64,000 nucleotides of DNA from a phage. Below, one piece after another: positions 3,569 through 51,091 of this stretch. Under the pieces are notes generated by a model. The model was not told the origin of the DNA, made no database searches, and worked only from the letters and a program-made list of their open reading frames with translations. How positions within the stretch are numbered: the stretch's first letter is position 1; each line of letters begins with the position of its first letter. Location: sequence record PZ445430.1. One strand, 5' to 3'. The position numbers and the translations under genes are program-made.

Positions 3569-4201
3569 ATGACAAATGCTGCTATTGACTATAACAAGTT
3601 AAAATCAGCACCGGTTCATTTAGACGCTTACATTAAGTCTATTGATAGCGAATCCAAAGAGGGTGTTGTAAAAATCCGTGGATTCGCTAATACAATTAGT
3701 AAAGATCGCGCTGGTGACGTAATTCCTGCTTCGGCATGGAAAACATCTAATGCACTTGCTAACTACATGAAAAACCCGATTATTCTTTTCGGCCACGACC
3801 ATCGTCGTCCAATCGGCAAGTGTATTGATCTTAACCCTACTGAAATGGGTCTCGAAATTGAATGCGAGATTTATGAAAGTTCTGATCCAGCTATCTTCTC
3901 ACTAATTAAAAACGGTGTACTGAAAACCTTCAGTATCGGATTCCGCTGCCTAGACGCAGAATGGGATGAAGCTACTGACATATTTATTATTAAAGATTTA
4001 GAACTATACGAAGTTTCGGTAGTTTCTGTACCTTGTAATCAGGACTCAACGTTCAACCTCGCTAAGAGTATGAATGGCCACGATTACACTGAATGGCGCA
4101 AATCTTTTACTGCAACAAGTTCTAAGGCTGTCCCAGCTCAAGAACGTAATCTTTCTGAACTAGAAAAACTTGCGATAGCTTTAGGCTACGTTAAAGAATA
4201 A
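3569..4201 (+). CDS. prohead maturation protease (T5 pb11-like)
   Basis: 210-aa ORF between decoration and major capsid genes; GGAGG RBS. Confidence 0.75.
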   Translation: MTNAAIDYNKLKSAPVHLDAYIKSIDSESKEGVVKIRGFANTISKDRAGDVIPASAWKTSNALANYMKNPIILFGHDHRRPIGKCIDLNPTEMGLEIECEIYESSDPAIFSLIKNGVLKTFSIGFRCLDAEWDEATDIFIIKDLELYEVSVVSVPCNQDSTFNLAKSMNGHDYTEWRKSFTATSSKAVPAQERNLSELEKLAIALGYVKE

Positions 4202-4218
4202 CGGAGAATTATTTAAAA

Positions 4219-36730: not shown

Positions 36731-37498
36731 TTATTCAGCAGCCGCAGCTTTTGCATCCAGTTTAGCACGCTTAGCAGCACCATCATAGTCCTTAGCAACC
36801 AGACCACGACGAGACAGCATAGATTTAACACCGCGCTCAGACTTACCAGTTTTCTCAGCGATCTCAGCAACAGCCATGTTAGCCAGATCCAGACCTTCTA
36901 ACAGATCTTCACGGGTTTTAGCACTTGAAGTTTCCTGTACCGGCATAGCAGCGATACGACCTTCGCGAAGCAGGCTCAGAGCTTTACCACGGATCTGCTT
37001 AATATTGCGACCGAAGTGAGCAGCGATAGCTTCAATAGTAGCACCAGCAACAACCTGATTAACGAAATCAGTTTCTTCATCAGGAGTGAAGGAACGAACA
37101 GCGGCAGCTTTTTCAGTTGGCTTAACAGAAGCAGTCATTTCTAGACTCAGGATCTTACCCTGTACCTGCTTAGCACCGAACTGACCACCAGCTACAGCAG
37201 CAGCGATTTCAGCGTAAGTATACTGACCAGCATGAGCGTTCAGGAAATCAACCAGTTCAGCTTCCTGCTCAGGAGTCCACGGGGATTTCTGTACTTCGTT
37301 TGCTTTCTGTACTTCGAAACCTTCTTTACGCAGCTTAGAGCCAACAGAGCGAGCGGTAACGTCTTTACCGGTCTCGGTAGCCAGTTCAGCAGCGATAGCA
37401 GCTACTTGTTCTTGAGAGATTACAGTAACACCCAGAGCAGTGGCTTTTGCTTTCAGAGACTCGGTTACACCTTCTACGTTCCAGTTCAGTTTAGACAT
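36731..37498 (-). CDS. D5-like DNA-binding protein
   Basis: 255 aa, Ala/Lys-rich with three internally repeated motifs; strongly biased codon usage; position between helicase and ligase genes. Confidence 0.55.
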   Translation of the reverse strand: MSKLNWNVEGVTESLKAKATALGVTVISQEQVAAIAAELATETGKDVTARSVGSKLRKEGFEVQKANEVQKSPWTPEQEAELVDFLNAHAGQYTYAEIAAAVAGGQFGAKQVQGKILSLEMTASVKPTEKAAAVRSFTPDEETDFVNQVVAGATIEAIAAHFGRNIKQIRGKALSLLREGRIAAMPVQETSSAKTREDLLEGLDLANMAVAEIAEKTGKSERGVKSMLSRRGLVAKDYDGAAKRAKLDAKAAAAE

Positions 37499-38273
37499 TA
37501 TTATTTTTCTCCAATAGTTCTTTAATCGACAGGATTTCTATCCCATTCGTTTCGGCTTTCTTATAAGATGAGGAAGAACGTTTTGATTCATCCTCACAGA
37601 TTAGGTATTTGACGTCTTTGGTAACGGACTTCTTAACCGTATATCCTAGACTCTCTAAATAGTTTGTTGCATCCGTTCGATTTGCAAAATCTTGCAAAGA
37701 TCCGGTAATACAGACCGTGATTCCATTTGGCTGAGCAACTAAATCATCTGTAATGATGATATCAGCTTTAGCACCTCGAATACCAGTTGAGAATTTCCAC
37801 GGTAATTCAATAACATCCTTGCCTTGCGGGGAATTTAGCCAGGTTTTGTAATTTTCTCCAGCCTTGCCGTCAGCCTTCACATCGTGGAAGCTAGTGCAAT
37901 TTTGGGACAGTTTCTTTGCTGCAACCTCTCCAATAAGAGGAATTCCTAAAGAACCGAGAACTGAACCAAAGTCAATGTCTCCGCGAACCTTAGTATTTAA
38001 CTCGCTAATCAACTTAGCGGCAACCTTGCTACCCACAGCTCCGACCAAATCTTCTTCGGTCAGGTAAAACAGTTCTGAGATTTTAGTCAGCTCCAGCTTC
38101 TCAATAGTTTTCGGGCCAAAGCCCTTTAACTTCATTTTTGTGCAGAAGTTCTCGATTAACTTACTTGATTGCGCTGGACAGTTGGACTTATTCCTACAGA
38201 ATAATTGCCCGTTGACAAGATCTAGCTTAGAACCACAAGAGGGACATTGTGTTGGAATTTCGATTTTCATCAA
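37491..38273 (-). CDS. NAD-dependent DNA ligase, C-terminal part (Zn finger, HhH, BRCT)
   Basis: N-terminal CPSCGSKL...C zinc-finger-like motif, HhH-like and BRCT-like regions; own promoter and RBS. Confidence 0.75.
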   Translation of the reverse strand: MMKIEIPTQCPSCGSKLDLVNGQLFCRNKSNCPAQSSKLIENFCTKMKLKGFGPKTIEKLELTKISELFYLTEEDLVGAVGSKVAAKLISELNTKVRGDIDFGSVLGSLGIPLIGEVAAKKLSQNCTSFHDVKADGKAGENYKTWLNSPQGKDVIELPWKFSTGIRGAKADIIITDDLVAQPNGITVCITGSLQDFANRTDATNYLESLGYTVKKSVTKDVKYLICEDESKRSSSSYKKAETNGIEILSIKELLEKNNNV

Positions 38274-38294
38274 ATTTCTTCCTTATCAATTTAT

Positions 38295-38340
38295 ATAAAT
38301 ATTATAGCAAGTATTTAAGCATTTAGCAACTACAATTTTA
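38295..38340 (-). promoter_or_regulatory. promoter in ligase spacer driving the C-terminal ligase ORF
   Basis: on - strand TTGCTA, 17-nt spacer, TATAAT, A/T-rich upstream. Confidence 0.65.
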
Positions 38341-38472
38341 ACTAACTTTGCTTACCCTCGCCATAACTTTCTATCCCTCAACTGAATGATAATAGTATAT
38401 ACCTAAGCGGCGAAAATGTCAATAACCACTTTATAATTCCGACATGGTAAACGGGTAGCAAAGGGTTACGAA

Positions 38473-39444
38473 TTAGTCGTATACTCGCTCTACTATACAA
38501 GGGATTACACCACCAGCACGAATCACTCGAATCTGGCTACCGATCTCTAAATCGAGAGCGTTAATATAGTCAACGTTATTAAGAGTTGCTTTAACGATTG
38601 TGGCATCATCAATAATCACCGGTTCGAAATAACCAACTGGAGTTACTTTACCAGAAGCCCCAACTTGCCATTCAACTTTAACAAGAGTGGTAATTTCGCC
38701 TTCTTCATCCTCTTTAATAGCAAATGCACCACGAGGAAATTTATTAGTCCAACCTTCACGGAAGAATTTATTGTTGTCATTAATACGAACAACTTTACCG
38801 TCCGTCGGAATCCATTTAAAGAAGGAACGAACATTAACAACTGTCAAGAAGTTCTCATTCTCTAGCCAAAGCATATCTTTTAAATAGGCTTCTGTAATAC
38901 CGACTGTTTCCGCTGAACACTGGATACCATATGCAACGAAGATTAAACCACCTTCACCAATACGTTGGATGAAATCATCGCTGTCTTTCAGGTTAATAGC
39001 ACCCGAAGCGTAGTTACGTTTGTTCTCTACTTCTTTAGTAATTAGAACTTCACCAGTGATTTGAGTTGGTACTTTTTGGGAAATAGTTTTGGGGATGTTC
39101 AGCATTTTAACATTATGCGTTACATCATTCCCTAGAATACCGTTACCACGAGTTAACGCTTGAACAAACTCACCATTAATATATAATAGAGAAATCGCAC
39201 AACCATCTAACTTATCAGTTTCAACCTGACCAAGTGGGTTGAATGGAGCTTTATCACCACGATCGTAATAGACTTTCTGCAAAGAATACATACGATACAA
39301 ATGAGGGATATCACCTTTCGGTCCGATTTCTTCCTCTAGTGGGAATCTTTTAATCAGACGATCATATTCTTCGTCAGAGATTAAAGACATACCTTGATAA
39401 TATGCTTCTTGACAGCGTTTAATAAATTCTTTTACATTAGTCAT
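38473..39444 (-). CDS. NAD-dependent DNA ligase, N-terminal adenylation/OB part
   Basis: KLDG adenylation motif (VETDKLDGCAISLLY) and LigA-like N-terminus. Confidence 0.8.
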   Translation of the reverse strand: MTNVKEFIKRCQEAYYQGMSLISDEEYDRLIKRFPLEEEIGPKGDIPHLYRMYSLQKVYYDRGDKAPFNPLGQVETDKLDGCAISLLYINGEFVQALTRGNGILGNDVTHNVKMLNIPKTISQKVPTQITGEVLITKEVENKRNYASGAINLKDSDDFIQRIGEGGLIFVAYGIQCSAETVGITEAYLKDMLWLENENFLTVVNVRSFFKWIPTDGKVVRINDNNKFFREGWTNKFPRGAFAIKEDEEGEITTLVKVEWQVGASGKVTPVGYFEPVIIDDATIVKATLNNVDYINALDLEIGSQIRVIRAGGVIPCIVERVYD

Positions 39445-39469
39445 TTATTTATATCTCTCATCAATTTAT

Positions 39470-39512
39470 ATAAATATTGTATAACAAAACTGAGTCGAAA
39501 GCAAGTACATTT
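39470..39512 (-). promoter_or_regulatory. promoter upstream of ligase N-terminal ORF
   Basis: on - strand TTGCTT, 17-nt spacer, TACAAT. Confidence 0.55.
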
Positions 39513-39531
39513 ATAAAGAAAAAGCCAAGAA

Positions 39532-39840
39532 CTAGGCATTCTTGGCTTTGAGTTCTTCAGCTCGTTTCTGTACTTCATGCAATACCTCGGATTCACTGAG
39601 GATTTGCGTAAAAGCGTAAAATAGCTGTGATGTAGTTTCTAGGGTATAAGGAAAAGAGAAGCCGGATTTCGTTGGAAACCACTCTCCAGTAATATCTTGG
39701 AGCCAGTAACGAATTCCCATGTATAGATTCCCACGAAATTCAGATACGGTTAGTCTTACTTGTTCCCCCTCCTTCTCCCAAAGCATGATGGACTGGTCGT
39801 CAACGTGTCCTTCATAGTTTTGATTTACCTGATCGCTCAT
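39532..39840 (-). CDS. PC4-like ssDNA-binding protein
   Basis: 102 aa; RLTVSEFRGNLYMGIRYW...GEWFPTKSGFSFP resembles PC4/YdbC-type fold. Confidence 0.5.
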   Translation of the reverse strand: MSDQVNQNYEGHVDDQSIMLWEKEGEQVRLTVSEFRGNLYMGIRYWLQDITGEWFPTKSGFSFPYTLETTSQLFYAFTQILSESEVLHEVQKRAEELKAKNA

Positions 39841-39856
39841 TTACATATCCCAAATA

Positions 39857-39881
39857 CACAAAAAGCCCCATATAGGGGCTA
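39857..39881 (-). terminator. intrinsic terminator
   Basis: AGCCCC-TATA-TGGGGCT hairpin followed by TTTTTG on - strand. Confidence 0.7.
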
Positions 39882-39890
39882 ATTGGTTTC

Positions 39891-40187
39891 TTATCGGCCT
39901 ACTGGAGAAGCACGATCTAACTCTGACTGGAGGCTCGTCACACGGCGAACTTTCGCAACAGGAATAAAACGGAAGCTATCATTAGTACGAGAGAAAACGA
40001 GGATTTCATCTTCTTTCGGCTTACGGATGCGCTCACGTTTAATACGCTCAGCCAGGTATTTATCCTGAGCTGGATCAAATTCCATCGTACCCTGAAGGTA
40101 CGTGGTTCCTTTCTGACGAAGTTTTTCGTAATGAAGATAAAACTCACCAAATTTTTCGCATTGAGCAATAATTTCAGCTTTGTTCAT
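39891..40187 (-). CDS. hypothetical protein
   Basis: 98-aa ORF in - strand early operon. Confidence 0.5.
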   Translation of the reverse strand: MNKAEIIAQCEKFGEFYLHYEKLRQKGTTYLQGTMEFDPAQDKYLAERIKRERIRKPKEDEILVFSRTNDSFRFIPVAKVRRVTSLQSELDRASPVGR

Positions 40188-42565: not shown

Positions 42566-45338
42566 TTCTAGCCCCCAATTCAGCAAGAGCTTCCTCATGC
42601 ATCTGACGTTCTTCATCTGTCATAAACTTAACTGGAATCGGCATACATTCGATCTTACAGTAAGTTCTGTACCAGTCCACAATCTTTTCCGTATCCAGAT
42701 CTTTACCAATACCCATCATGCCAAGATACATACGAGCATATTTTGGGTTAGCACTCTGACCTGTCTTAAGGAAGAAATCCTTCTTCTTATTCTTAAGAGC
42801 TTCAATAAAAGGTTTGATTGTTACGTTTGAACACTTCTTAATATCCTCCCAGAACATATCGTGCATCTTATGGAAGAATGCAGCTCTATCGTTTGGTTTA
42901 TCCTTGATATATTGTTCAACGTGTTCCACTGTTACATCTTTAATAGAATCCAGATGATAATAGCGAACCAGAAGTAACTTGGCTTCATATGCATCTGCAT
43001 GACGTGGTGCGCAGTATTCAGGAGTTGAGTGCAAAATAGCTTTGATTCGCTCTTCTGTATACTCTTTGCCTGCACCTTCGATAGTTCCCCAGCTTTCACT
43101 GAAAATATCAATAGTTGCACCTTGATCGAGAAGATAATACCGCAAAGTACTGGTATAGTTTCTAGATTCCAGCTCACGACGACGTGCGTACAGTTGTTGG
43201 GCTAACTCAATCCAACCTTCGTCAATATTATATTGCTCGGAACCCGCAGAAAATCCACTCGTAGATTTATCAATAAAATAATAAATGTTCTGAGCACCAC
43301 GGTCGCGCCTGATTGCTTGAAAACGCATGTTTGGCGCTTGGTTTGAGGTTCTAGTAATTACGAATACATTATCAAAATAGTTAAAGTCAACACCACTCGT
43401 TACAGATGGACTACATAATAAACAATCAATCTGTTGATCAATTAGCTCATTAGTTGTATAATCCAGAATACGTCGGATATCTACATCAGACGTAGAGTTT
43501 GAGTGAATTTCTTTAACTAACGCACCAGTATTACGACGTAACGCCATTCCCTTTTCATTCAGTTCATCTGGTCCACAGTCAGATACTAGGATTGACTTCT
43601 CACCCATCTCTAGAGATGTTTGAAGTGCAACCCAAATACTGGATTCATCAGGGAATTCATAAGCATGAGCTTTCGCCAGCATTTTACGGTGGTGATTATA
43701 AAATGCGACTGGTTTATCAAAATCAATCAAAGAACCATAGGCTTCAATCGTTTCTGCACTGATATCCCCATCAGATAAGATCACCGTTTTTGCAGTAATA
43801 AGAATATCACGAAGAACCTGAATACATTCACGACGGTTTTTAACAACCGGAGCGAATAACAGATCATTCATTACTGCGTCACATTCATCAATAAAGATCG
43901 TATCAATCTGACCCACAAAGCTCTTGAACTTATGTATAGAGTGAATAGTTGAAGACATACGATCAATAGCACCACGTTTGAAGTTCAGCATATCAACTGA
44001 CTTATCATACTGGCCAGCACCGAATTTCTTCGCATTAGAAGATACAAGTGCCCTAGTATTTGTGATTGCAATAAAGTTTCCTGGAAGAACACCTGCATCT
44101 AGCCACTTAGTTACTGCGGTAGTTTTACCCGTACCAAGACTTGCCTTAACAAATGTTAAATGTCCTTTTGGTGGTACAATGTTAATTTTCAGGTATGGAA
44201 CTTCTGGTGGAGAATCTGTGTCTAGACGTTTTAATGGTACACCTTTTAAGTTTGGTGGAATCTCACGTTTGGAGTTATTTACAAAGGCTTTGAGAGCCTG
44301 CTTACGACCGTTATTAAAGTAATCTTGAATATTACGACTATTATCTTTAGTCGCAATATACTCAGATAAAGCTGGTTTAATCTCACGTTCTAACCACGTA
44401 AAGTCAACACCATCTTCTAACGCTCTGTGATAAAGTTTTGGGATAATACGCAGGTACACTCCATCCTCAGCTTCTTCTAGTTCGCTGATGGTTTCTTCCA
44501 CTTTATCAGATGCAGCCTTCTTGCCTTTAATTTGGTCAAGTAAGGAGTAGAATTCTTCTTTAAACTCACCTCTAGTTGTTTCAAAGTCAACTAGGTTATT
44601 GGGTAGATTCACTTTCGAACCCTTAACATACACAAGACGTGGTTTATTCTCCGCTTTAAACGGATCGACTATACCATCATCAAATAAGGGGTCTGCAAAA
44701 TAGTGAAGCTGAACAGAAGAATAATAAGCTAAGTCAGCAATATCAAAACCATACTTTTGCTTACTACTGTCATTGATAGATGTAAATAAGAACTTTAACT
44801 GACCTTGCGTTACCTTGACATTAGATTCTAGCATTAAGTGCATTCGGATACCTGGTTTTAGGCCAGCCGAAGACGATGCATGAGCAATAAACCCTGCATC
44901 AAGAGGAAACATATCCTCACTAATACTATTCAACATCTTAATAATATGACGTGCCATGCCAACAAGATTAAACTTGTCATAGCCACCAGTATCTACAATA
45001 CCATCCACGTCCATAGCGATAATATGACTAGGATTGGATACGTTAAAGTTTCCTCTGGTACGACGCACATTATCTTTTGGAGCTAAACATTTACCACGAA
45101 TAGCTACAATATGCGGGTCTTTGGTAAGACGACGCATGATAGGTAACATTTCAGCAAGGTTTTGCGGGTCAAGTTCTTCAAGTACATCAAATTTGAAGGG
45201 CATGGAAGCTGGTTTACCTTCTGGATGCTCTTTAGAGAATCGCTTTGCAAAGGTGTAGTCTTCCACTTTGATCTCTTTCCAGATGCCAGTGGCTTTATCT
45301 CTGGAAAATCCTGCGTGACCTTGTAGGATTGAGAACAC
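42549..45338 (-). CDS. D2-like large P-loop NTPase / helicase, possibly with N-terminal primase-like domain
   Basis: Walker A ASLGTGKTT; possible primase-like acidic motif MDVDGI; start moved from track ATG 45461 to in-frame GTG about 45338 preceded by AGGAG. Confidence 0.55.
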   Translation of the reverse strand: MFSILQGHAGFSRDKATGIWKEIKVEDYTFAKRFSKEHPEGKPASMPFKFDVLEELDPQNLAEMLPIMRRLTKDPHIVAIRGKCLAPKDNVRRTRGNFNVSNPSHIIAMDVDGIVDTGGYDKFNLVGMARHIIKMLNSISEDMFPLDAGFIAHASSSAGLKPGIRMHLMLESNVKVTQGQLKFLFTSINDSSKQKYGFDIADLAYYSSVQLHYFADPLFDDGIVDPFKAENKPRLVYVKGSKVNLPNNLVDFETTRGEFKEEFYSLLDQIKGKKAASDKVEETISELEEAEDGVYLRIIPKLYHRALEDGVDFTWLEREIKPALSEYIATKDNSRNIQDYFNNGRKQALKAFVNNSKREIPPNLKGVPLKRLDTDSPPEVPYLKINIVPPKGHLTFVKASLGTGKTTAVTKWLDAGVLPGNFIAITNTRALVSSNAKKFGAGQYDKSVDMLNFKRGAIDRMSSTIHSIHKFKSFVGQIDTIFIDECDAVMNDLLFAPVVKNRRECIQVLRDILITAKTVILSDGDISAETIEAYGSLIDFDKPVAFYNHHRKMLAKAHAYEFPDESSIWVALQTSLEMGEKSILVSDCGPDELNEKGMALRRNTGALVKEIHSNSTSDVDIRRILDYTTNELIDQQIDCLLCSPSVTSGVDFNYFDNVFVITRTSNQAPNMRFQAIRRDRGAQNIYYFIDKSTSGFSAGSEQYNIDEGWIELAQQLYARRRELESRNYTSTLRYYLLDQGATIDIFSESWGTIEGAGKEYTEERIKAILHSTPEYCAPRHADAYEAKLLLVRYYHLDSIKDVTVEHVEQYIKDKPNDRAAFFHKMHDMFWEDIKKCSNVTIKPFIEALKNKKKDFFLKTGQSANPKYARMYLGMMGIGKDLDTEKIVDWYRTYCKIECMPIPVKFMTDEERQMHEEALAELGARNDSEE

Positions 45339-45829
45339 AACAATACTCCTATGTTGGTTATTCGGATATCTTTCTTTAGGACTATTCAAAAGAATAGAAC
45401 AACTATTACTACCATTTACACAAACATTAATCATCATCAAGCAGTATGAATAAGTTATCATACCTCAGTGCTGCGCTCTCTTAACTCTTATCCAGATCAG
45501 AATCTAGGTCATTGGCCGCTAAGCCGATTCTGATTGCCCTCACTATCCTATTGGTAGGTGGCTACTGGACGTGTCACCATTCGCTGCTCTTTTCGTTCGC
45601 ACCCCCATATAAAGCTCTGCCTATATAACGAGCTAAATATGCACGGTTTGGATTTACCTTTCCGAATTCAGGGTACGCAGATCACTTAATTGATAATTAA
45701 CTAACGCAGTATAAACACTAGTAATAGTTAAAACAACCCTTAATGGGGCAGCCTAACTGTTCCGTATTGCGGATTGTAAACAAGAAAAATTAGCAAAATC
45801 AATTTTTACTAATGTCTCTCAATTCAATA

Positions 45830-45870
45830 TAAATATTATATCAAGATTTTGAGCATCCTGCAAGTAAAAT
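45830..45870 (-). promoter_or_regulatory. promoter upstream of long leader of D2-like gene
   Basis: on - strand TTGCAG, 17-nt spacer, TATAAT. Confidence 0.5.
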
Positions 45871-45902
45871 TTTTCCGAAGGTGCTATCAGTGTCCTTGAG
45901 CA

Positions 45903-45931
45903 CAGAGAAAACCGAGTCATTTTGACTCGGT
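45903..45931 (-). terminator. intrinsic terminator after paralog gene
   Basis: CCGAGTC-AAAAT-GACTCGG hairpin followed by TTTTCTCT on - strand. Confidence 0.7.
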
Positions 45932-45954
45932 AATCAGGATTGAGCTAATGAAAA

Positions 45955-46350
45955 TCAATCATCATTTAGGCCTGGGACATAGATTCCAATGCGATTTAAT
46001 TGACCTTTAGCTTCTTCGAGAATATCTTCGGTGTACTCCCAAATATCATCTTCTACTTGCAAAAGATAAGGGGATTCACCAGTTTCGGGGTCACGTGTAA
46101 TGGCTAAGCCACGTGGATGGAATATAGAGAAGTTGAGGGCAACAATCAAGCCCATGCTGGACAATTCATTCCAGTCAGCTTCCCAACCATCATCTTCATC
46201 TTCGTCCACAAAGACACCTACACTAGGGTCTGTTACAGAAGTAAACGGAAATGTTACACTAACCTTGTCAACCCCCAACCAACGTGCAAGGAGCCCTTCA
46301 GCACGCTCTACCAAATTAGGATCTATCTGACGCCAAAATACTTGTTCCAT
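45955..46350 (-). CDS. hypothetical protein, paralog A of tandem pair
   Basis: 131 aa; clear similarity to adjacent 142-aa ORF (GLIVALNFSIFHPRGLAI / GLVFALNHKLFMPANHRL; C-terminal GIYVPGL / GYMIPGL). Confidence 0.6.
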   Translation of the reverse strand: MEQVFWRQIDPNLVERAEGLLARWLGVDKVSVTFPFTSVTDPSVGVFVDEDEDDGWEADWNELSSMGLIVALNFSIFHPRGLAITRDPETGESPYLLQVEDDIWEYTEDILEEAKGQLNRIGIYVPGLNDD

Positions 46351-46359
46351 TCTGCCTCC

Positions 46360-46788
46360 TTAAGCAGTTAAACCTGGGATCATATACCCGAAACGACGAA
46401 GTTTCTGAATCCCCTCATTTACTTCTTCGGGCGAATATGACCAGCCCTCACGTTCATTTACCTGGAAAGCAGGAGCTTCACCAGTGCGATAGTTTACAAT
46501 AAGACGGTGATTTGCAGGCATAAACAGCTTATGGTTCAAGGCAAAAACCAGACCCATTTCATCTAGTTCTTTCCAGTCTACAATTTCTTCTACTCTCTCA
46601 CCTAAATCCACGCTAACTCCAATACATGGAGCTTCCTCTAGTGGGCCTTTAAAGGATAGGAAGATATCGTTATTATCACACCAAATCTTAAGCAGATTGA
46701 TGGTTTCATTATACATACCATTAGGGAGAGAACGCCAGAAGTTGAGGAGCATAGGGTTTACCTCTTTCATGAAAAGATTATCGAACAT
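46360..46788 (-). CDS. hypothetical protein, paralog B of tandem pair
   Basis: 142 aa; paralogous to 45955-46350. Confidence 0.6.
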   Translation of the reverse strand: MFDNLFMKEVNPMLLNFWRSLPNGMYNETINLLKIWCDNNDIFLSFKGPLEEAPCIGVSVDLGERVEEIVDWKELDEMGLVFALNHKLFMPANHRLIVNYRTGEAPAFQVNEREGWSYSPEEVNEGIQKLRRFGYMIPGLTA

Positions 46789-46790
46789 AT

Positions 46791-47330
46791 TTACACCTTA
46801 AGTTTCTGAAGAGCCTTACACATTTCAAGATCTGGACTAAACTCCAGCATATAGCTGATAGCATTTAAATCTTGAAGGTTTATTCCAGTCCTGCCATTTA
46901 CAATAACAGTAGGGAATTGGTACATCATAGCACCAGCATCATCTAGGACACACCAATGCTTGAGCTTATATTTTTCGACGAAACGTAAAACAGAATTACC
47001 CCGAGATAAACCACCTCCAGTAAAATCTGTTGTACCAAGGAAACGATCGATCAAACCGAGCCCGGTCATAATCTGAACGTTCTCCATCTCATTTCGTACA
47101 GAAAACCATGAAGATACCCCAACAATCATTATTGGGGATGGCTTAAGAAAGTTCTGAAAAGCCTGGAGTAATGGCTTGTAAACCCAATCACCACCAAAGA
47201 ATAGCTTCTCACTATCTGGAGCATGATGGTGAGAGATGCTCGAATTGAGCACCCCATCAATATCCAGGAAAATCACAGGAGTATTACTTATTTCCACCAG
47301 TAGCATCCCACGTCCAGACTTTAACTTCAT
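46791..47330 (-). CDS. HAD-like hydrolase/phosphatase (putative)
   Basis: 179 aa; N-terminal VIFLDIDGVLN matches HAD motif I. Confidence 0.45.
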   Translation of the reverse strand: MKLKSGRGMLLVEISNTPVIFLDIDGVLNSSISHHHAPDSEKLFFGGDWVYKPLLQAFQNFLKPSPIMIVGVSSWFSVRNEMENVQIMTGLGLIDRFLGTTDFTGGGLSRGNSVLRFVEKYKLKHWCVLDDAGAMMYQFPTVIVNGRTGINLQDLNAISYMLEFSPDLEMCKALQKLKV

Positions 47331-47469
47331 CAGTAAAAGGAACTGGAACCTTCAATTCACCTTTACCCCACATAACAGATAGGAACAGAGAATAAATGGT
47401 AATCATACCGATTAGGTTGACAAACCATACTAGACCTTTCCAGATACCCTTAAAAATCTTCTTCACCAT
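47284..47469 (-). CDS. small membrane protein
   Basis: 61-aa ORF (MVKKIFKGIWKGLVWFVNLIGMITIYSLFLSVMW...) with hydrophobic helix; AAGGAGGG RBS before internal ATG of track ORF. Confidence 0.5.
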   Translation of the reverse strand: MVKKIFKGIWKGLVWFVNLIGMITIYSLFLSVMWGKGELKVPVPFTDEVKVWTWDATGGNK

Positions 47470-47632
47470 ATTCTCCCTCCTTAATAAGGAACTCTTTCCA
47501 TTCTGCTGTATCCTCATAGATAACGCAGAAATCATCACTCTTCCATGAGAAGTCATCAGTAGCAAATTCGAAACGGTAGCACCAACTACCATCTGGCCAT
47601 ACTAAAAGATCACACATGCTTTTCTGGGACAT
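47450..47632 (-). CDS. small acidic protein
   Basis: 60-aa ORF (MSQKSMCDLLVWPDGSW...) preceded by GGAGGG; start overlaps 3' end of Sir2-like gene. Confidence 0.4.
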   Translation of the reverse strand: MSQKSMCDLLVWPDGSWCYRFEFATDDFSWKSDDFCVIYEDTAEWKEFLIKEGEYGEEDF

Positions 47633-48461
47633 AAATATTTCCCTCCATAAAAGCTTCAACTTGATCAATAAAGTGTTTATTACCAAAAACTTCGGCAGCT
47701 CCAGCACGCCATACAGTAACACCACGTTTCTCATACTCAAGCTGTTCGTCATAACGAACTTGTGGGTTAACAACCATCATCTTAGTTCCACGACATACAG
47801 CAGGAAATAATTCCCAGTTGAAGTTGATAACTTGGTTACTACAACCCACCACAATAACCATGTCATTGCTAGTAAGAGTATCAAACAGGTTGATTTGACC
47901 CATGTACCACGGAGCTGTCTCACCAAAGAACACCACGTTTGGTTTTACCCATTCGTAATCTTCAGGGGCAATCGCAGTATACCCAACATCTTCGATGATT
48001 TGATTGCGACCCTGATGATAGATCACCTCTTTCAAGTACCCGTGAGCGTGAATGATTTCATCACGAGGGATACCAGCACGTTCCAGAAGGTCATCAACGT
48101 TAGTAGTGAAGTTCTTCACGCTACCCGCATCATAACGCTGGAACCATTCTGCAATTCGCAGATGGGCAATGTTAGGCTCAACAGTCTGTAGTTCCTGACG
48201 ACGCATGTTGTAGAACTCATGAGTCTTGAGATACAGATCGTTACCATCTTCATCAATGCCAGGGAAACGAGCGCTGAAGTAGTTAGGATCATCTTCACCA
48301 CAGAAGCGACGGAAGCCAGCTTCAAAGTTAGGCAAGCTACATACTTCCTCTAGATCGTACTCATCCCACAAAGATTTTCCACTAGCAGTATCAGTACGGA
48401 AAGCACGAACACCACTATCTACACTCAAACCTGCACCACTAACAACAATTAGTCTACGCAT
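47610..48461 (-). CDS. Sir2-like NAD-dependent protein (sirtuin fold, no obvious Zn ribbon)
   Basis: 283 aa; GAGLSVDSGVRAFR, TTNVDDL, HAHG, VVGCSNQV match sirtuin motifs; no CxxC pairs seen. Confidence 0.7.
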   Translation of the reverse strand: MRRLIVVSGAGLSVDSGVRAFRTDTASGKSLWDEYDLEEVCSLPNFEAGFRRFCGEDDPNYFSARFPGIDEDGNDLYLKTHEFYNMRRQELQTVEPNIAHLRIAEWFQRYDAGSVKNFTTNVDDLLERAGIPRDEIIHAHGYLKEVIYHQGRNQIIEDVGYTAIAPEDYEWVKPNVVFFGETAPWYMGQINLFDTLTSNDMVIVVGCSNQVINFNWELFPAVCRGTKMMVVNPQVRYDEQLEYEKRGVTVWRAGAAEVFGNKHFIDQVEAFMEGNIYVPEKHV

Positions 48462-48655
48462 TATACGATTCCTTGCTTGAATCCTTCGATGATATTTTGG
48501 AGCAGAATTGCTTCTTCTGGGCGAACCTTCTCTTGCTTAATAAGCATATCCAAACCAGCAATACAGGTAGCTACTCCAGCATTATACCCAGCATTCCACT
48601 GCTCCATAAGCATATTTTCTAAATTACTTTTTAGATTCTGATTCAAGAAGTCCAT
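48461..48655 (-). CDS. hypothetical small protein
   Basis: short ORF (likely start MDFLNQ) downstream-coupled to Sir2-like gene. Confidence 0.35.
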   Translation of the reverse strand: MDFLNQNLKSNLENMLMEQWNAGYNAGVATCIAGLDMLIKQEKVRPEEAILLQNIIEGFKQGIV

Positions 48656-48827
48656 AAAGTTTTTCCTCCAATTCCATAATACGATTTTCGTAAGAAGCAC
48701 GCAGCTTCTCGATGGACAAAGCACGAACTGTAACTTCATCTGAATTGATCGCTAGCTGAGCTAGATCTTCTGTTTCCATACGTCCGTTGTAAATTAAGCG
48801 ATATTTAAGATGTTTTACGTTTTTCAT
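48624..48827 (-). CDS. hypothetical small protein
   Basis: 67-aa charged helical ORF. Confidence 0.35.
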   Translation of the reverse strand: MKNVKHLKYRLIYNGRMETEDLAQLAINSDEVTVRALSIEKLRASYENRIMELEEKLYGLLESESKK

Positions 48828-48836
48828 TCTTGTTCC

Positions 48837-49118
48837 TTAGTTCTGTACTGTAAATTCATTCTTATCACAGTGAGCATAATAATACCCATACATACGATAA
48901 ATTTTCACAGCCTTAGTAGACCCCTTCGATTCTTCATAATCAATCCAGAGCCACTTGTCTTTACCTACATAATGTACCCGAAACTTCTTAACTTTCTTAT
49001 CATTCCATGTTGCAACAACACGACGATAATCAAATCCACCCAACCAATCTAGAGCCTTACGTTCTTCACTAGGCTCTCCAAGATAGGAAACATCTACTTT
49101 CGGAAGCAATTCGCTCAT
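48837..49118 (-). CDS. hypothetical protein
   Basis: 93-aa ORF with T5-type promoter and GAGGAG RBS upstream. Confidence 0.5.
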   Translation of the reverse strand: MSELLPKVDVSYLGEPSEERKALDWLGGFDYRRVVATWNDKKVKKFRVHYVGKDKWLWIDYEESKGSTKAVKIYRMYGYYYAHCDKNEFTVQN

Positions 49119-49141
49119 AGCTTTCTCCTCTCAAATTTATA

Positions 49142-49180
49142 AATCAATTATACATAAGTTTTAGCTCGAAAGCAAATAAA
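49142..49180 (-). promoter_or_regulatory. T5-type early promoter
   Basis: on - strand TTGCTT, 17-nt spacer, TATAAT. Confidence 0.6.
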
Positions 49181-49211
49181 ATAAAAGCCAGGTCGACTAG
49201 CAACCTGGCTG
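49175..49211 (-). terminator. intrinsic terminator after nrdD
   Basis: AGCCAGGT...ACCTGGCT hairpin followed by TTTTATTTTA on - strand. Confidence 0.7.
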
Positions 49212-49216
49212 ATTCA

Positions 49217-51091
49217 TTATTTAGCGCGAATGTCCTGATGTTTCACTCGACCCATAACCTCATGTTGTTTACCTGGGTTAAATGGACGAGCACCTGGATT
49301 TCCGAGATATCCACAAACTCGACGAGTTACCTCAAGAGTCTCAGGATCATGGTTGCCACAAATTGGGCATTTGAAACCATCCTCAGAAGCTATAGTTTCA
49401 CCCAAGAACCCACATTCCCCACAAGAGTCTACTGGAGTATTAATACCAAAGTAATGAACTTTACTTGCGGCATAGTTAATAACCCATTCCAGTGCATCTG
49501 GGAATCGTTTCATATCCGGCAATTCCACATAGGAAATGCATCCACCAGAAGCAATTGGAGTAAAGTTAGACTCATAATCGAACTTCACGTTTGGAGCAAC
49601 CTTACGTTCTACATCAAGGTGATGGGAATTAGTGTAATATCCTTTAGCCAGAATATCTTCATGCTCTGGAAAATACTCACGGTCTAGGCGACAGAAGCGA
49701 TCACATAGAGATTCAGATGGTGTAGCATATAGACTATACCCTAATTGAGTCTCTTCCTTCTTCTGATCAGCACGATCACGCATGTATTGTAGCACACGTT
49801 GAACGAACTTGACACAAGACTCAGACATTGTATCTACATCTTTACCAAACATGAACTGCAACATTTCGTGGCAGCCTATATATCCTAGAGATACAGAAGC
49901 ACGCTTGTAGAAATGATCAAACACATACTCATCTGGCCCCAGACGTAATCCAAAGGCTCCTGACATATAGAGGATGGGCGCAGCTTTAGCTTGGATGTAT
50001 TTTAAGCGATCAACCCTCCACTCCAATGCTTTTAACGCGGTATCCACACGCAGCTCAAGTAGATCGAAGAATAGATCAATATTTCCTTCCGCTTCGATAG
50101 CGATTCGAGGAAGGTTTACGGAAACAACGCCTAAGTTGTTACGACCAGAAGTTTCACCATCTTCCGCAGCAGCCAGGAATGAACGACAGCCCATAGAGAC
50201 TTTGTAGTCTCCCGTAACTTCTACAACCTTATCATAACTGATGTAGTCAGGATACATACGTTCAGCAGTACATTTCATAGCTAACTTCTTGATATCATAG
50301 TTAACATCACCAGGTTTCATGTTTACGCCATCACGCAAAACAAATACCAGTTTAGGGAAGATAGCTGTACGTTTATTGATACCCAAACCATCCATACGCA
50401 CTTCTAGGATTGCTTTCTGTACAAGACGTGCTTCCCAAGAAGTTCCTAGACCAAACCCAAAGGTAATAAACGGACTTTGACCATTAGAGTTGAACATCGT
50501 ATTGATTTCATACTCCAGGCCCTGACAGGCATCGTAAACTTCTTTCTCAGTCATTTCCGTAGCCATTACAGATGCTTTAGCTTCATCCTTAGTCCAACGC
50601 TTTGCAAACGCATGATTCTTATCATAAGACTTACGAACATAAGGAGCCAATACTTCATCTAATCGGTCTACAGAAGTACCCCCATATTGATGTGAACTAA
50701 CCTGAGTGATAATCTGAGCTGTGATAGCAGCCGCAGTAGTAATAGAGTTTGGTGTACTGATTTCAGCATTACCAACCTTCATACCATTCTTCAACATATC
50801 TTCCAAAGCAACCAGGCAACAGTTAGTCATACCTAACGCAGCGTAATCAGCATCATGGAAGTGAATATCACCAATCATGTGAGCATTTCGAATCTGGATT
50901 GGCATTTCTTCCAGAATCAGATATTTACTCAATTCCCCTGCAAGCATATCCCTTTGTGTAGGGAAACGTTCTGAGGGCTTATTGGCATTATTAAACAGCA
51001 GCTCTTCATCTGCTGAACCTTCGATAATTTCTTTGCAGTTTCGAATCAAGGACTGCATTCCTTTATACTTTAGTTCTTCATTGTGATTCAT
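49217..51091 (-). CDS. nrdD: anaerobic ribonucleoside-triphosphate reductase (class III)
   Basis: 624 aa; C-terminal glycyl-radical motif RVCGYLG and Zn-ribbon cysteines (CGECGF...CPICG). Confidence 0.85.
   Translation of the reverse strand: MNHNEELKYKGMQSLIRNCKEIIEGSADEELLFNNANKPSERFPTQRDMLAGELSKYLILEEMPIQIRNAHMIGDIHFHDADYAALGMTNCCLVALEDMLKNGMKVGNAEISTPNSITTAAAITAQIITQVSSHQYGGTSVDRLDEVLAPYVRKSYDKNHAFAKRWTKDEAKASVMATEMTEKEVYDACQGLEYEINTMFNSNGQSPFITFGFGLGTSWEARLVQKAILEVRMDGLGINKRTAIFPKLVFVLRDGVNMKPGDVNYDIKKLAMKCTAERMYPDYISYDKVVEVTGDYKVSMGCRSFLAAAEDGETSGRNNLGVVSVNLPRIAIEAEGNIDLFFDLLELRVDTALKALEWRVDRLKYIQAKAAPILYMSGAFGLRLGPDEYVFDHFYKRASVSLGYIGCHEMLQFMFGKDVDTMSESCVKFVQRVLQYMRDRADQKKEETQLGYSLYATPSESLCDRFCRLDREYFPEHEDILAKGYYTNSHHLDVERKVAPNVKFDYESNFTPIASGGCISYVELPDMKRFPDALEWVINYAASKVHYFGINTPVDSCGECGFLGETIASEDGFKCPICGNHDPETLEVTRRVCGYLGNPGARPFNPGKQHEVMGRVKHQDIRAK

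What the first reader, a model, noticed from the sequence alone, without database searches (positions are those of the whole stretch)
45955..48461. Accessory cluster: Sir2-like protein, HAD-like hydrolase, two tiny coupled genes and a tandem pair of paralogs
Between the D2-like gene and nrdD lies a tight - strand run of genes with no obvious replication or structural role. The Sir2-like protein keeps the sirtuin NAD-pocket motifs (GAGLS..SG.R.FR, TTNVDDL, HAHG, GCS) but shows no Zn-ribbon cysteines, which is the arrangement seen in NAD-consuming Sir2 effectors rather than classical deacetylases. A phage-encoded Sir2 next to a HAD-type phosphatase and duplicated small proteins could be an NAD or nucleotide manipulating counter-defence or host-takeover module. 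A Sir2-like gene is annotated in T5-like phages as far as I recall, but I know of no assigned function.
Basis: partly seen in the sequence, partly recalled or inferred. Interest (0 to 1): 0.65.

Follow-up and report, generated by a model that had tools for sequence, protein, structure and literature searches.

The report
Phage T5-type sirtuin accessory operon
This is the already-annotated early accessory operon of T5-like phages, holding a zinc-free CobB-like sirtuin, a phosphatase of a family predicted to repair RNA, and small proteins of unknown function; a 2022 paper predicted that it repairs cleaved RNA using NAD+, but nobody has tested this.

Summary
The window is Escherichia phage SuperGirl (Bas29, T5-like). 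Coordinates 45955-48461 hold six minus-strand genes:
- a 283-aa SIR2-family protein;
- two overlapping genes of 60 and 61 aa;
- a HAD_SAK_2 phosphatase;
- two DUF7415 paralogs.

They form the distal two-thirds of a nine-gene early operon (49118 to 45955), bounded by a T5-type promoter and two terminators.

The sirtuin does lack the zinc cysteines, and this loss is shared by a whole phage clade. But by sequence and predicted fold it is closest to the class III deacylases CobB and SIRT5. It keeps the catalytic His and the YxxR pair. It matches no model of a defence NADase.

The sirtuin plus "Swiss-army-knife" HAD neighbourhood of T5-like phages was described by Iyer et al. 2022. They predicted NAD+-dependent RNA-end repair, with the sirtuin acting like Tpt1/KptA. 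I confirmed that orthologues in rV5-like phages sit in an RNA ligase, cREC, kinase and phosphoesterase operon.

Against this reading, T5-like phages have no detectable RNA ligase. No experiment exists.

Minor new points: a conserved 60-aa partner overlaps the end of the sirtuin gene, the DUF7415 fold matches nothing solved, and the sirtuin core is a mosaic allele.

The parts
49186..49210 (-). Terminator-like hairpin directly after nrdD; upstream boundary of the operon
   Evidence: 10-bp stem with 6 GC pairs, followed by a T-run
49147..49175 (-). T5-type early promoter: TTGCTT (49175-49170), 17-nt spacer, TATAAT (49152-49147)
   Evidence: Read directly from the sequence. It matches the T5 promoter consensus TTGCTT-N17-18-TATAATA quoted in the AKFV33 annotation. 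A putative promoter is annotated at the same place in phage S114.
48837..49118 (-). First operon gene, 93 aa, unknown function (bas29_0056). It is variable: a non-homologous gene sits here in AKFV33.
   Evidence: phrog_7953, E 1e-64. 15% identity to AKFV33 orf102. Present in 14 of 30 T5-like loci.
48624..48827 (-). 67-aa gene of unknown function (bas29_0055, T5.101-like)
   Evidence: phrog_5236, E 2e-46. 90% identical in AKFV33. Present in 26 of 30 T5-like loci.
48461..48655 (-). 64-aa gene of unknown function (bas29_0054). Its stop codon overlaps the sirtuin ATG by 1 nt.
   Evidence: phrog_5827, E 6e-33. Present in 23 of 30 T5-like loci.
47610..48461 (-). Zinc-free phage sirtuin, 283 aa (bas29_0053, T5 'Sir2-like'). 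NAD+ pocket, catalytic His140 and class III Y84/R87 are intact.
   Evidence: Pfam SIR2, E 8e-22. phrog_2162, E 2e-107. CobB is the best PDB match by sequence and by fold. Invariant residues listed. No Cys in the zinc module.
47450..47632 (-). tinyA: 60-aa acidic protein (pI 4.05) with core motif VWPDGSWCY...SDDF. It overlaps the 3' end of the sirtuin gene by 23 nt and is a candidate sirtuin partner.
   Evidence: phrog_5116, E 4e-29. A homologous ORF overlaps the end of the sirtuin gene in the five lineages inspected: SuperGirl, Tequintavirus L033 and L045, Sugarlandvirus L019, and unrelated contig L060. A tinyA homologue is present in 24 of 30 T5-like loci.
47284..47469 (-). tinyB: 61-aa basic protein with one hydrophobic, transmembrane-like segment (GLVWFVNLIGMITIYSLFLSVMW). 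Variable accessory gene.
   Evidence: phrog_11166, E 3e-44. pI 9.7, GRAVY +0.42. Present in only 7 of 30 T5-like loci. 100% identical to the AKFV33 copy.
46791..47297 (-). Stand-alone HAD phosphatase of the HAD_SAK_2 family, 168 aa (179 aa if the ATG at 47330 is used). Predicted active.
   Evidence: PF18143, E 7e-18. Motif residues D12, D14, S62/S63, R99 and D119/D120 are conserved across 52 relatives. Present in 27 of 30 T5-like sirtuin loci.
46360..46788 (-). DUF7415 paralog A, 142 aa, acidic, with two DUF7415 repeats. Function unknown.
45955..46350 (-). DUF7415 paralog B, 131 aa, very acidic (pI 4.05). Function unknown.
   Evidence: PF24187, E 9e-28. 31% identical to paralog A, E 1e-20. DUF7415 is present in 30 of 30 T5-like sirtuin loci, as two copies in 28.
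45911..45931 (-). Terminator-like hairpin closing the operon
   Evidence: 9-bp stem followed by a T-rich tail, 24 nt after the last stop codon

Best explanation
The region is the distal part of a nine-gene early accessory operon that is standard in T5-like phages. Its two enzymes most likely act on damaged RNA ends, such as tRNA or rRNA cut by host anticodon nucleases or toxin RNases.

Inferred mechanism:
1. The stand-alone HAD_SAK_2 phosphatase removes terminal 2'/3'-phosphates. Alternatively it processes the ADP-ribose phosphate by-product.
2. The zinc-free, CobB-derived sirtuin uses NAD+ as Tpt1/KptA does. A 2'-phosphate attacks C1'' of NAD+ and releases nicotinamide.
3. [quoted passage not shown]
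4. In T5-like phages any sealing would have to be done by a host enzyme, or is not needed, because no phage RNA ligase is detectable.

What is shown: gene identities, operon structure, family memberships, conserved catalytic residues, and gene contexts in related phages.

What is inferred: the RNA substrate, the 2'-phosphotransferase chemistry, and any role for tinyA, tinyB and the DUF7415 pair. tinyA is the most likely direct partner of the sirtuin. The DUF7415 pair may be functionally separate.
For: Published prediction:
- Iyer et al. 2022 describe exactly this neighbourhood type, a sirtuin plus a Swiss-army-knife HAD in T5-like phage SP15 (PMC9503650 section 3.7.3).

Independent checks here:
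- The rV5-like orthologue (47% identical, E about 1e-77) sits in a co-directional row of Metallophos, RNA_lig_T4_1 (E 6e-15), cREC_REC (E 2e-13), AAA_33 kinase, sirtuin and MazG.
- Of 11 rV5-type IMG/VR loci, 9 have the ligase, 8 cREC, 10 the kinase and 10 the phosphoesterase.
- In jumbo phage GAP32 the sirtuin is flanked by a 2H phosphoesterase and a Nudix-cREC fusion.
- In T5-like loci the HAD is present in 27 of 30.
- The HAD and all 52 sampled relatives are HAD_SAK_2 with intact catalytic motifs.

Chemistry:
- The catalytic His140, N121, D123 and F21/R22 are invariant, as is the anion-binding class III pair Y84/R87 plus R88.
- The Tpt1 two-step mechanism is given in the abstract of PMC11417386. 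The parallel with sirtuin chemistry is my inference.

Genome context:
- The phage also invests in NAD+ supply. It carries NadR-like and PnuC genes, homologues of the NARP3 system (PMC13464706).
- It carries about 30 tRNA genes, which fits pressure on its translation RNAs.
Against: - No RNA ligase, cREC, 2H or rV5-type kinase homologue is detectable in SuperGirl record 1-100000 (tblastn, E 0.01). The annotated 'polynucleotide kinase' has no Pfam support.
- The sirtuin's nearest characterised relatives are protein deacylases. It keeps the FGE peptide-staple motif. It is acidic, pI 4.8, which is unusual for an RNA-binding enzyme.
- Sugarlandvirus, phi92-like and nt-1 type phages carry the sirtuin without any recognisable RNA-repair neighbour.
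- The RNA role of HAD_SAK_2 is itself only a contextual prediction. No solved relative exists. Similarity to the T4 Pnkp phosphatase is only generic for the HAD superfamily (hhalign probability 18.7%).
- DT57C is a viable isolate without the sirtuin or the HAD.
- No experiment was found in the literature.
Confidence: 0.4

Rival explanations
1. The sirtuin is what its closest relatives are: an NAD+-dependent protein lysine deacylase of class III (deacetylase or desuccinylase). The phage would use it early in infection to reset acylation of host or phage proteins. On this reading the HAD and the small genes are unrelated neighbours.
For: - Best sequence and fold matches are CobB, Sir2-Af1 and SIRT5.
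- All NCBIfam hits are CobB-type deacylase models.
- The catalytic His, the YxxR pair and the FGE motif are invariant.
- Several lineages carry the sirtuin without any RNA-repair neighbour.
Against: - It scores far below every curated CobB cutoff, for example 75.7 against 320 bits.
- The zinc cysteines, which classical deacylases keep, are lost across the clade.
- There are clade-specific motifs (VINFNWELFP, EVC) and a roughly 30-residue insertion.
- Two other phage groups show strong, repeated linkage to RNA-end-processing genes.
Confidence: 0.25
2. The sirtuin is an NAD+-consuming anti-defence or takeover enzyme. It would either ADP-ribosylate a host target or destroy or divert NAD-derived immune signals. 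The HAD, and the Nudix, 2H or cREC partners in other phages, would clear the ADP-ribose-phosphate or cyclic-nucleotide products.
For: - In GAP32 the sirtuin lies 3-5 kb from NadM and NamPT (NAD salvage). It sits next to a 2H protein that matches the anti-CBASS Acb1 family (E 6e-16) and next to a Nudix-cREC fusion.
- SuperGirl carries homologues of the NARP3 NAD+ salvage system.
- The sirtuin core is a mosaic, exchanged allele: 48-70% nucleotide identity inside flanks of 83-100%. This pattern fits an arms race.
Against: - There is no similarity to ThsA, DSR, Sir2-HerA or pAgo-type sirtuins in PADLOC.
- No Macro-domain partner is present.
- The phage depends on NAD+ for its own split NAD-dependent DNA ligase, so bulk NAD+ hydrolysis would harm the phage itself.
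- Retention of the catalytic His points to two-step transfer chemistry rather than simple hydrolysis. This last point is inference.
Confidence: 0.15
3. The six genes are not one module. The sirtuin (with tinyA) and the HAD are one or two independent accessory functions. The DUF7415 pair is a separate acidic early-protein function, for example a host-protein inhibitor, that is merely syntenic.
For: - DT57C deletes the sirtuin, both tiny genes and the HAD, but keeps both DUF7415 genes.
- DUF7415 occurs alone in T4-like phages such as RB43 and Klebsiella myoviruses.
- HAD_SAK_2 occurs alone in T4-like Aeromonas and Morganella phages.
- The sirtuin occurs without either of them in rV5-like and phi92-like phages.
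Against: - DUF7415 accompanies the sirtuin in 30 of 30 T5-like loci, in one operon with tight or overlapping gene junctions.
- In Sugarlandvirus the DUF7415 pair directly follows the sirtuin and tinyA genes.
Confidence: 0.35

Closest known systems
Phage 'RNA-repair' sirtuin clade, SP15-type neighbourhood (Iyer, Burroughs, Anantharaman and Aravind 2022, Viruses 14:1977)
   Same: The same gene pair, a sirtuin plus a Swiss-army-knife-type HAD, in the same phage group (T5-like). The SP15 DUF7415 protein P0132 is among the homologues. The sirtuin belongs to the same clade as the rV5 and jumbo-phage versions.
   Different: Nothing material differs. The paper does not mention the tinyA partner, the DUF7415 pair, the mosaic sirtuin allele or the HAD-less Sugarlandvirus variant. 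Its mechanism is a prediction only.
E. coli CobB and class III sirtuins (SIRT5, Sir2-Af1)
   Same: Rossmann fold plus small domain, with TM up to 0.83 normalised to CobB. GAGxS, FR, xNxD and HG motifs, the class III YxxR pair and the FGE motif are shared.
   Different: - No zinc cysteines, and a small-domain ribbon about 10 residues shorter.
- A roughly 30-residue insertion at residues 47-80.
- TTNVDD in place of TQNID.
- Clade-specific EVC and VINFNWELFP motifs.
- Only about 26% identity, and far below the NCBIfam CobB cutoffs.
Tpt1/KptA RNA 2'-phosphotransferase
   Same: Proposed functional analogue. It is NAD+-dependent and transfers ADP-ribose to an anionic oxygen nucleophile, followed by O2'' attack (mechanism from PMC11417386; the analogy is from PMC9503650).
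   Different: An unrelated fold: ART superfamily against a sirtuin Rossmann fold. No sirtuin has been shown to act on RNA. The comparison is an analogy only, not family membership.
T4 Pnkp-Rnl1 tRNA repair against PrrC
   Same: A phage counter-defence that heals RNA ends using a HAD-type (DxDxT) phosphatase. The rV5-type sirtuin operon contains an Rnl1-family ligase and a P-loop kinase.
   Different: SuperGirl has no detectable ligase or Pnk-type kinase. Its HAD shows only generic HAD-superfamily similarity to the Pnkp phosphatase domain.
Defence sirtuin NADases (ThsA, DSR1/2, Sir2-HerA, short pAgo-Sir2)
   Same: Sirtuin superfamily. They use NAD+ and, from my own knowledge, lack a zinc ribbon.
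   Different: A different family: these are Pfam SIR2_2 type, from my own knowledge. There are no PADLOC hits, no sensor or partner domains such as SLOG, HerA or pAgo, and the gene is phage-encoded and expressed early.

Membership tests
Sirtuin / SIR2 (Pfam PF02146) | Score above the Pfam gathering threshold | tested here: met
   78.4 bits against a cutoff of 24, E 8.4e-22
Sirtuin / SIR2 (Pfam PF02146) | NAD+ pocket and catalytic motifs: GAGxS, SGxxxFR, T(Q/T)N(I/V)D, HG | tested here: met
   G9, A10, G11, S16, F21, R22, N121, D123, H140 and G141 are invariant in 66 diverse homologues
Sirtuin / SIR2 (Pfam PF02146) | Sirtuin fold: Rossmann domain plus small domain | tested here: met
   AlphaFold model with pLDDT 90. 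The Foldseek top 50 are all canonical sirtuins, E down to 8e-16.
Sirtuin / SIR2 (Pfam PF02146) | Cys4 zinc-binding module in the small domain | tested here: not met
   No Cys between HG and FGE in this protein or in the T5-, rV5-, phi92-, nt-1- and GAP32-type homologues. Distant viral homologues L068-L070 keep 4 Cys.
CobB-type protein deacylase (NCBIfam NF040867, NF001753 and related models) | Score above the curated equivalog or subfamily cutoff | tested here: not met
   92 against 243 bits, and 75.7 against 320 bits
CobB-type protein deacylase (class III sirtuin) | YxxR acyl-carboxylate recognition pair | tested here: met
   Y84 and R87 align with the CobB FYNARR motif and are invariant
CobB-type protein deacylase (class III sirtuin) | NAD+-dependent lysine deacylase activity | not testable with these tools
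   Needs an enzyme assay
Defence-type Sir2 NADase effectors (ThsA, DSR1/2, Sir2-HerA, pAgo-Sir2) | Match to the defence-system sirtuin profiles | tested here: not met
   No PADLOC hit at E 0.01 for any of the nine operon proteins
Defence-type Sir2 NADase effectors (ThsA, DSR1/2, Sir2-HerA, pAgo-Sir2) | Fused or adjacent sensor or partner (SLOG, HerA, pAgo, large DSR domains) | tested here: not met
   The protein is a single domain of 283 aa. Its neighbours are the HAD, DUF7415 and small ORFs.
Phage RNA-repair sirtuin systems (Iyer et al. 2022) | Sirtuin of the distinct phage clade encoded next to RNA-end-processing genes, here a Swiss-army-knife HAD, with no Macro-domain partner | tested here: met
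   HAD_SAK_2 lies two small genes downstream in the same operon. It is present in 27 of 30 T5-like loci. No Macro domain is present.
Phage RNA-repair sirtuin systems (Iyer et al. 2022) | Orthology with the sirtuins embedded in RNA ligase, cREC and kinase operons | tested here: met
   47-57% identity over the full length to the rV5-type sirtuins, with shared clade motifs and the shared zinc loss. Their neighbourhoods were verified by Pfam and by the locus census.
Phage RNA-repair sirtuin systems (Iyer et al. 2022) | RNA 2'-phosphate removal using NAD+ | not testable with these tools
   This is a prediction only. No experimental paper was found.
HAD_SAK_2 (Pfam PF18143) | Score above the gathering threshold, and HAD motifs I-IV present | tested here: met
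   65.5 against 27.5 bits. FLDIDGV, SSW, R99 and DD are conserved. All 52 of 52 sampled relatives hit the same family.
HAD_SAK_2 (Pfam PF18143) | Multidomain 'Swiss army knife' RNA-repair architecture | tested here: not met
   The protein is a stand-alone 168 aa. Most of the 124 related clusters are 150-180 aa.
HAD_SAK_2 (Pfam PF18143) | Specific relationship to the T4 Pnkp polynucleotide 3'-phosphatase domain | tested here: inconclusive
   hhalign probability 18.7%. Only motifs I and II align.
DUF7415 (Pfam PF24187) | Score above the gathering threshold | tested here: met
   124.2 and 96.7 bits against a cutoff of 27, with two repeats in each protein

The most novel reading that the evidence does not exclude
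The zinc-free phage sirtuin and its translationally coupled 60-aa WxDGSWCY partner (tinyA) would form a two-component NAD+-dependent enzyme acting on nucleic-acid ends. That would be the first sirtuin with an RNA 2'-phosphotransferase activity. In T5-like phages it would work with a stand-alone HAD and with the DUF7415 proteins, whose predicted fold matches nothing solved, as a ligase-independent RNA-healing counter-defence.
Probability: 0.2. Interest if true: 0.7.

Novelty: already known. Interest (0 to 1): 0.3.

Why it matters
If the published prediction is right, this would be a new catalytic use of the sirtuin fold: NAD+-dependent removal of RNA 2'-phosphates. It would also be a widespread phage answer to RNA-cleaving immunity. 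The sirtuin is present in about 980 sequenced phage genomes.

The cluster lies in a well-studied model phage group (T5 and the BASEL collection) and can be dissected genetically. A natural null mutant, DT57C, already exists.

As a discovery, however, it adds little. The genes are annotated, and both the association and the hypothesis are published.

Tried and rejected
- Defence-NADase reading: PADLOC gave no hit, and the fold search returned only canonical sirtuins in the top 50.
- HAD: no PDB relative was found with either the single sequence or the profile. Comparison with T4 Pnkp showed only generic HAD similarity.
- The distant HAD homologue near rnlA in Aeromonas phage PX29 looked suggestive. 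It is explained by the ordinary T4 backbone gene order, td, nrdA, nrdB, denA, rnlA, so I rejected it as evidence.
- The 'putative polynucleotide kinase' bas29_0173 has no Pfam hit and no similarity to the rV5 kinase. I did not use it.
- tblastn with the rV5 and GAP32 repair proteins against SuperGirl found nothing.
- The 161-aa and 217-aa genes upstream of the sirtuin in phi92-like phages, and the nt-1 neighbours, have no Pfam family or named PHROG.
- The small gene upstream of the sirtuin in SEL21 is not a homologue of bas29_0054.
- The DxDxT-containing 142-aa protein of L060 has no Pfam hit.
- Rfam found nothing in 45300-49400.
- tinyA has no match in PDB sequences.


Full report
**Identity of the window and check of the observation**

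Megablast of window 45800-48800 finds 100% identity to Escherichia phage SuperGirl. This phage is Bas29, MZ501105.1, family Demerecviridae, genus Epseptimavirus. A further 553 phage records match, almost all of them T5-like. Record coordinates equal window coordinates plus 480.

- 47610-48461: 283 aa, annotated "Sir2-like protein";
- 47450-47632: 60 aa;
- 47284-47469: 61 aa;
- 46791-47297: 168 aa, or 179 aa from an upstream ATG at 47330;
- 46360-46788: 142 aa;
- 45955-46350: 131 aa.

Family assignments:
- the 283-aa protein hits SIR2 PF02146, E 8.4e-22;
- the 168-aa protein hits HAD_SAK_2 PF18143 ("HAD domain in Swiss Army Knife RNA repair proteins"), E 8e-18;
- the last two proteins hit DUF7415 PF24187, E 2e-36 and 9e-28, with two repeats each.

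The last two are paralogs, 31% identical with E 1e-20. Every gene, including the tiny ones, belongs to a PHROG family.

**Operon structure**

The finding cuts a larger transcription unit.
- A strong terminator-like hairpin lies directly after the nrdD stop codon (49186-49210).
- It is followed by TTGCTT, a 17-nt spacer and TATAAT (49175-49147). This matches the T5 promoter consensus quoted in the AKFV33 record.
- A ribosome-binding site and the first of three small genes come next (48837-49118, 48624-48827, 48461-48655).
- The six genes of the finding follow.
- A second terminator-like hairpin sits at 45911-45931.

Gene junctions are tight or overlapping: a 1-nt overlap into the sirtuin gene, then 23-, 20- and 14-nt overlaps, then gaps of 2 and 9 nt. 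The unit is therefore a nine-gene early operon between nrdD and the replication-origin-binding (D2-like) gene. The same nine-gene order, T5.100 to T5.107, is annotated in the Tequintavirus AKFV33.

**The sirtuin**

By sequence, the best solved relative is E. coli CobB (1s5p, E 5e-16), followed by archaeal Sir2-Af and SIRT5/2/3.

An AlphaFold model built on 66 diverse homologues is confident. Mean pLDDT is 90 and pTM 0.88. Only the cofactor-binding loop, residues 22-30, is uncertain. In Foldseek against the PDB, the top 50 of 271 significant hits are all canonical sirtuins. CobB is first, with TM 0.81-0.83 normalised to the target.

Residues invariant across the 66 homologues include:
- G9, A10, G11, S16, F21 and R22;
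- N121 and D123;
- the catalytic H140 and G141;
- F178, F179 and E181;
- Y84, R87 and R88. Y84 and R87 align with the CobB FYNARR motif, the class III pair that binds anionic acyl groups.

The zinc cysteines are indeed absent. No column between HG and FGE holds a conserved Cys in 120 homologues.

A broader alignment shows that this is a clade character. The T5-, Sugarlandvirus-, rV5-, phi92-, nt-1-, GAP32- and L066-type proteins have no Cys there, a ribbon about 10 residues shorter, and TTNVDD. More distant viral homologues (L068-L070, 33-37% identity) keep four Cys and the canonical TQN(I/V)DD. The model still predicts the small-domain beta strands.

The protein is far below every curated CobB cutoff in NCBIfam. 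It hits no PADLOC defence model. It is therefore a derived, zinc-free offshoot of CobB-like sirtuins.

**What is already published**

Literature searches found no experimental work on a T5-type phage sirtuin. They did find a direct computational treatment: Iyer, Burroughs, Anantharaman and Aravind 2022 (PMC9503650).

That paper defines a distinct clade of phage sirtuins found in three conserved neighbourhoods:
1. jumbo phages, with 2H, Nudix, cREC and PIN genes;
2. rV5/Mydo-type phages, with a T4-like RNA ligase, cREC, a kinase, MazG and a calcineurin-like phosphoesterase;
3. [quoted passage not shown]

The authors propose that the sirtuin acts like KptA/Tpt1 and removes RNA 2'-phosphates using NAD+. 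The earlier jumbo-phage survey assigns Swiss-army-knife HADs to hydrolysis of linear terminal phosphates in RNA repair (PMC7824862). The core of the finding is therefore already described and interpreted, but only in silico.

**Independent tests of that context**

- rV5-like phage APECc02: the genes around the sirtuin are RNA_lig_T4_1 (E 6e-15), cREC_REC (E 2e-13), an AAA_33 kinase, a Metallophos phosphoesterase and a MazG-like pyrophosphohydrolase.
- Jumbo phage GAP32: a 2H protein (Acb1/2_5_RNA_ligase2) lies upstream and a Nudt16-like Nudix fused to cREC lies downstream. NadM and NamPT sit 3-5 kb upstream.
- Phapecoctavirus Schickermooser and Vibrio phage nt-1: no recognisable partner was found.

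A census of 56 IMG/VR loci encoding the sirtuin gave four groups:

| Group | Loci | Neighbours found |
|---|---|---|
| T5-like (sirtuin next to nrdD) | 30 | DUF7415 30/30 (two copies in 28), HAD 27/30, tinyA 24/30, tinyB 7/30 |
| rV5-type | 11 | ligase 9, cREC 8, kinase 10, phosphoesterase 10, MazG 11 |
| phi92-type | 8 | only two unknown upstream genes |
| Others | 7 | none of these |

The rV5-type row (phosphoesterase, ligase, cREC, kinase, sirtuin, all co-directional) is strong guilt by association for RNA end-healing. The T5-type protein is a clear orthologue of those sirtuins: 47-57% identity, with the same clade motifs and the same zinc loss.

**The HAD**

All four HAD motifs are present and conserved in 52 relatives: D12 and D14 in FLDIDGV, S62/S63, R99, and D119/D120. 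An active phosphatase is expected.

An exhaustive HMMER search found only 124 related clusters. Most are stand-alone proteins of 150-180 aa. All 52 that were scanned match HAD_SAK_2.

No solved structure is related by sequence. Comparison with the T4 Pnkp phosphatase domain shows only generic HAD similarity (probability 18.7%). The RNA role of this family therefore rests on context, not on experiment.

**Variation among T5-like phages**

- Klebsiella Sugarlandvirus phages (SEL21, L019, L020) have sirtuin, tinyA and two DUF7415 genes, but no HAD and no tinyB.
- Some Tequintaviruses place the HAD directly after the sirtuin, with neither tiny gene (L050).
- DT57C carries a deletion that fuses a sirtuin fragment to the last 46 codons of the HAD. 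Both tiny genes are removed and the DUF7415 pair is kept.

The sirtuin-HAD block is therefore dispensable for a viable phage, and the DUF7415 pair is separable from it.

DUF7415 single-domain proteins occur alone in T4-like phages. HAD_SAK_2 proteins do too. One such HAD lies near rnlA in phage PX29, but this merely reflects the T4 backbone gene order.

**The small genes and DUF7415**

- tinyA: 60 aa, pI 4.05. An ORF with the conserved core (V/L)W(P/A)(D/N)G(S/T)WCY...SDD(F/Y) overlaps the 3' end of the sirtuin gene in every lineage I inspected. These are SuperGirl, Tequintavirus L033 and L045, Sugarlandvirus L019, and an unrelated 13.7-kb contig, L060. The ORF is not annotated in the Sugarlandvirus phage SEL21. 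It is the most plausible direct partner of the sirtuin, but this is inference only.
- tinyB: basic, with one hydrophobic segment, and sporadic in distribution.

**Mosaicism**

Between SuperGirl and AKFV33, protein identities are uneven:

| Gene | Identity |
|---|---|
| 67-aa and 64-aa upstream genes | 90% and 89% |
| tinyA, tinyB | 98% and 100% |
| HAD | 90% |
| Sirtuin | 55% |
| DUF7415 paralogs A and B | 74% and 69% |

At the DNA level the background identity is about 83-85%. A block at 47271-47470 is 100% identical, while the sirtuin core falls to 48-70%.

The SuperGirl sirtuin is closer to those of Sugarlandvirus and phi92-like myoviruses (60-63%) than to the T5-type one (52%). The sirtuin core therefore looks like an exchanged allele.

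**Genome context**

SuperGirl encodes:
- a split NAD-dependent DNA ligase;
- about 30 tRNA genes;
- a NadR-like enzyme plus a PnuC transporter. These are homologues of the NARP3 NAD+ reconstitution system recently shown to defeat Sir2-HerA and DSR1 (PMC13464706).

It has no detectable homologue of the rV5 ligase, cREC or kinase, or of the GAP32 2H or Nudix-cREC proteins, in record 1-100000. The annotated polynucleotide kinase is unsupported.

**Verdict**

The most likely function is NAD+-dependent RNA-end healing as a counter-defence, with confidence about 0.4. The sirtuin would act as a Tpt1 analogue and the HAD as an end or by-product phosphatase. Sealing would be left to the host.

The main rival is an ordinary CobB-like protein deacylase (0.25). 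An NAD- or ADP-ribose-directed anti-defence role is less likely (0.15). Whether the DUF7415 pair belongs to the same function is open.

The finding is real but ordinary for this phage family. Its central idea is already published, so I rate it "already known" with interest 0.3.

Noticed in passing
window 47450-47632; L019 8818-8979; L060 816-1001: A 60-aa acidic ORF with core motif VWPDGSWCY...SDDF overlaps the 3' end of the sirtuin gene in each lineage inspected: T5-like SuperGirl, L033 and L045, Sugarlandvirus L019, and the unrelated contig L060. A homologue is present in 24 of 30 T5-like loci. It is not annotated in the Sugarlandvirus phage SEL21. It may be a dedicated sirtuin partner or regulator.
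   Followed up: partly
window 47610-48461 compared with L003 (AKFV33) 4001-4819: The sirtuin core is a mosaic allele. Nucleotide identity is 48-70% inside flanks of 83-100%, with a 100% identical block at 47271-47470. The SuperGirl sirtuin is closer to those of phi92-like myoviruses and Sugarlandvirus (60-63%) than to the T5-type one (52%), which suggests exchange between phage families.
   Followed up: partly
window 46791-47297; L002 3992-4507; L006 3468-3740: RefSeq annotations name the HAD gene 'Sir2 (NAD-dependent deacetylase)'; PHROG-derived labelling is the likely route. phrog_18062 is a 92-position profile labelled Sir2 that matches only the HAD C-terminus. The label probably comes from Sir2::HAD fusion ORFs left by DT57C-type deletions. 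This looks like a propagated annotation error.
   Followed up: partly
L068, L069, L070 (IMG/VR contigs), sirtuin match starting at 8001: Distant viral homologues (33-37% identity) keep the four zinc cysteines and TQN(I/V)DD. The T5-, rV5-, phi92-, nt-1-, GAP32- and L066-type proteins have lost them. The zinc loss therefore marks a subclade of phage sirtuins.
   Followed up: partly
SuperGirl record 67282-69016 (outside the window; L012 15783-17517): NadR-like (CTP_transf_like plus AAA_28) and PnuC (NMN_transporter) genes. They are homologues of the NARP3 NAD+ reconstitution system reported in 2026 for the related phage Bas30.
   Followed up: partly
window 37491-39444 (record 37971-39924): A split NAD-dependent DNA ligase, annotated as A and B subunits. 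The phage's own replication therefore depends on NAD+.
   Followed up: no
window 45462-45954: A 490-bp intergenic region downstream of the operon. It holds a promoter-like TTGCAG-N17-TATAAT at about 45862-45834 and a leader of about 370 nt before the replication-origin-binding gene. The leader folds slightly better than shuffled sequence (z = -2.3). There is no Rfam hit. AKFV33 has a homing endonuclease gene inserted at this site.
   Followed up: partly
L010 (GAP32) 4270-4716: The 2H phosphoesterase upstream of the GAP32 sirtuin matches the anti-CBASS Acb1 family (E 6e-16) better than the generic 2'-5' RNA ligase family. The jumbo-phage sirtuin neighbourhood could therefore act on cyclic-nucleotide signals rather than on RNA ends.
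   Followed up: no
L060 1813-2241 and 2439-3011: In an unrelated 13.7-kb viral contig, the sirtuin and tinyA pair is followed within 1-2 kb by a 142-aa protein carrying a DxDxT-like motif (LDFDDTV) but no Pfam hit, and by a borderline Metallophos protein.
   Followed up: partly
L007 (RB43) 2184-3234: A single-domain DUF7415 protein (RB43ORF184c) lies two genes downstream of the NudE Nudix hydrolase. A GmrSD_N-domain protein is nearby. The significance is unknown.
   Followed up: no
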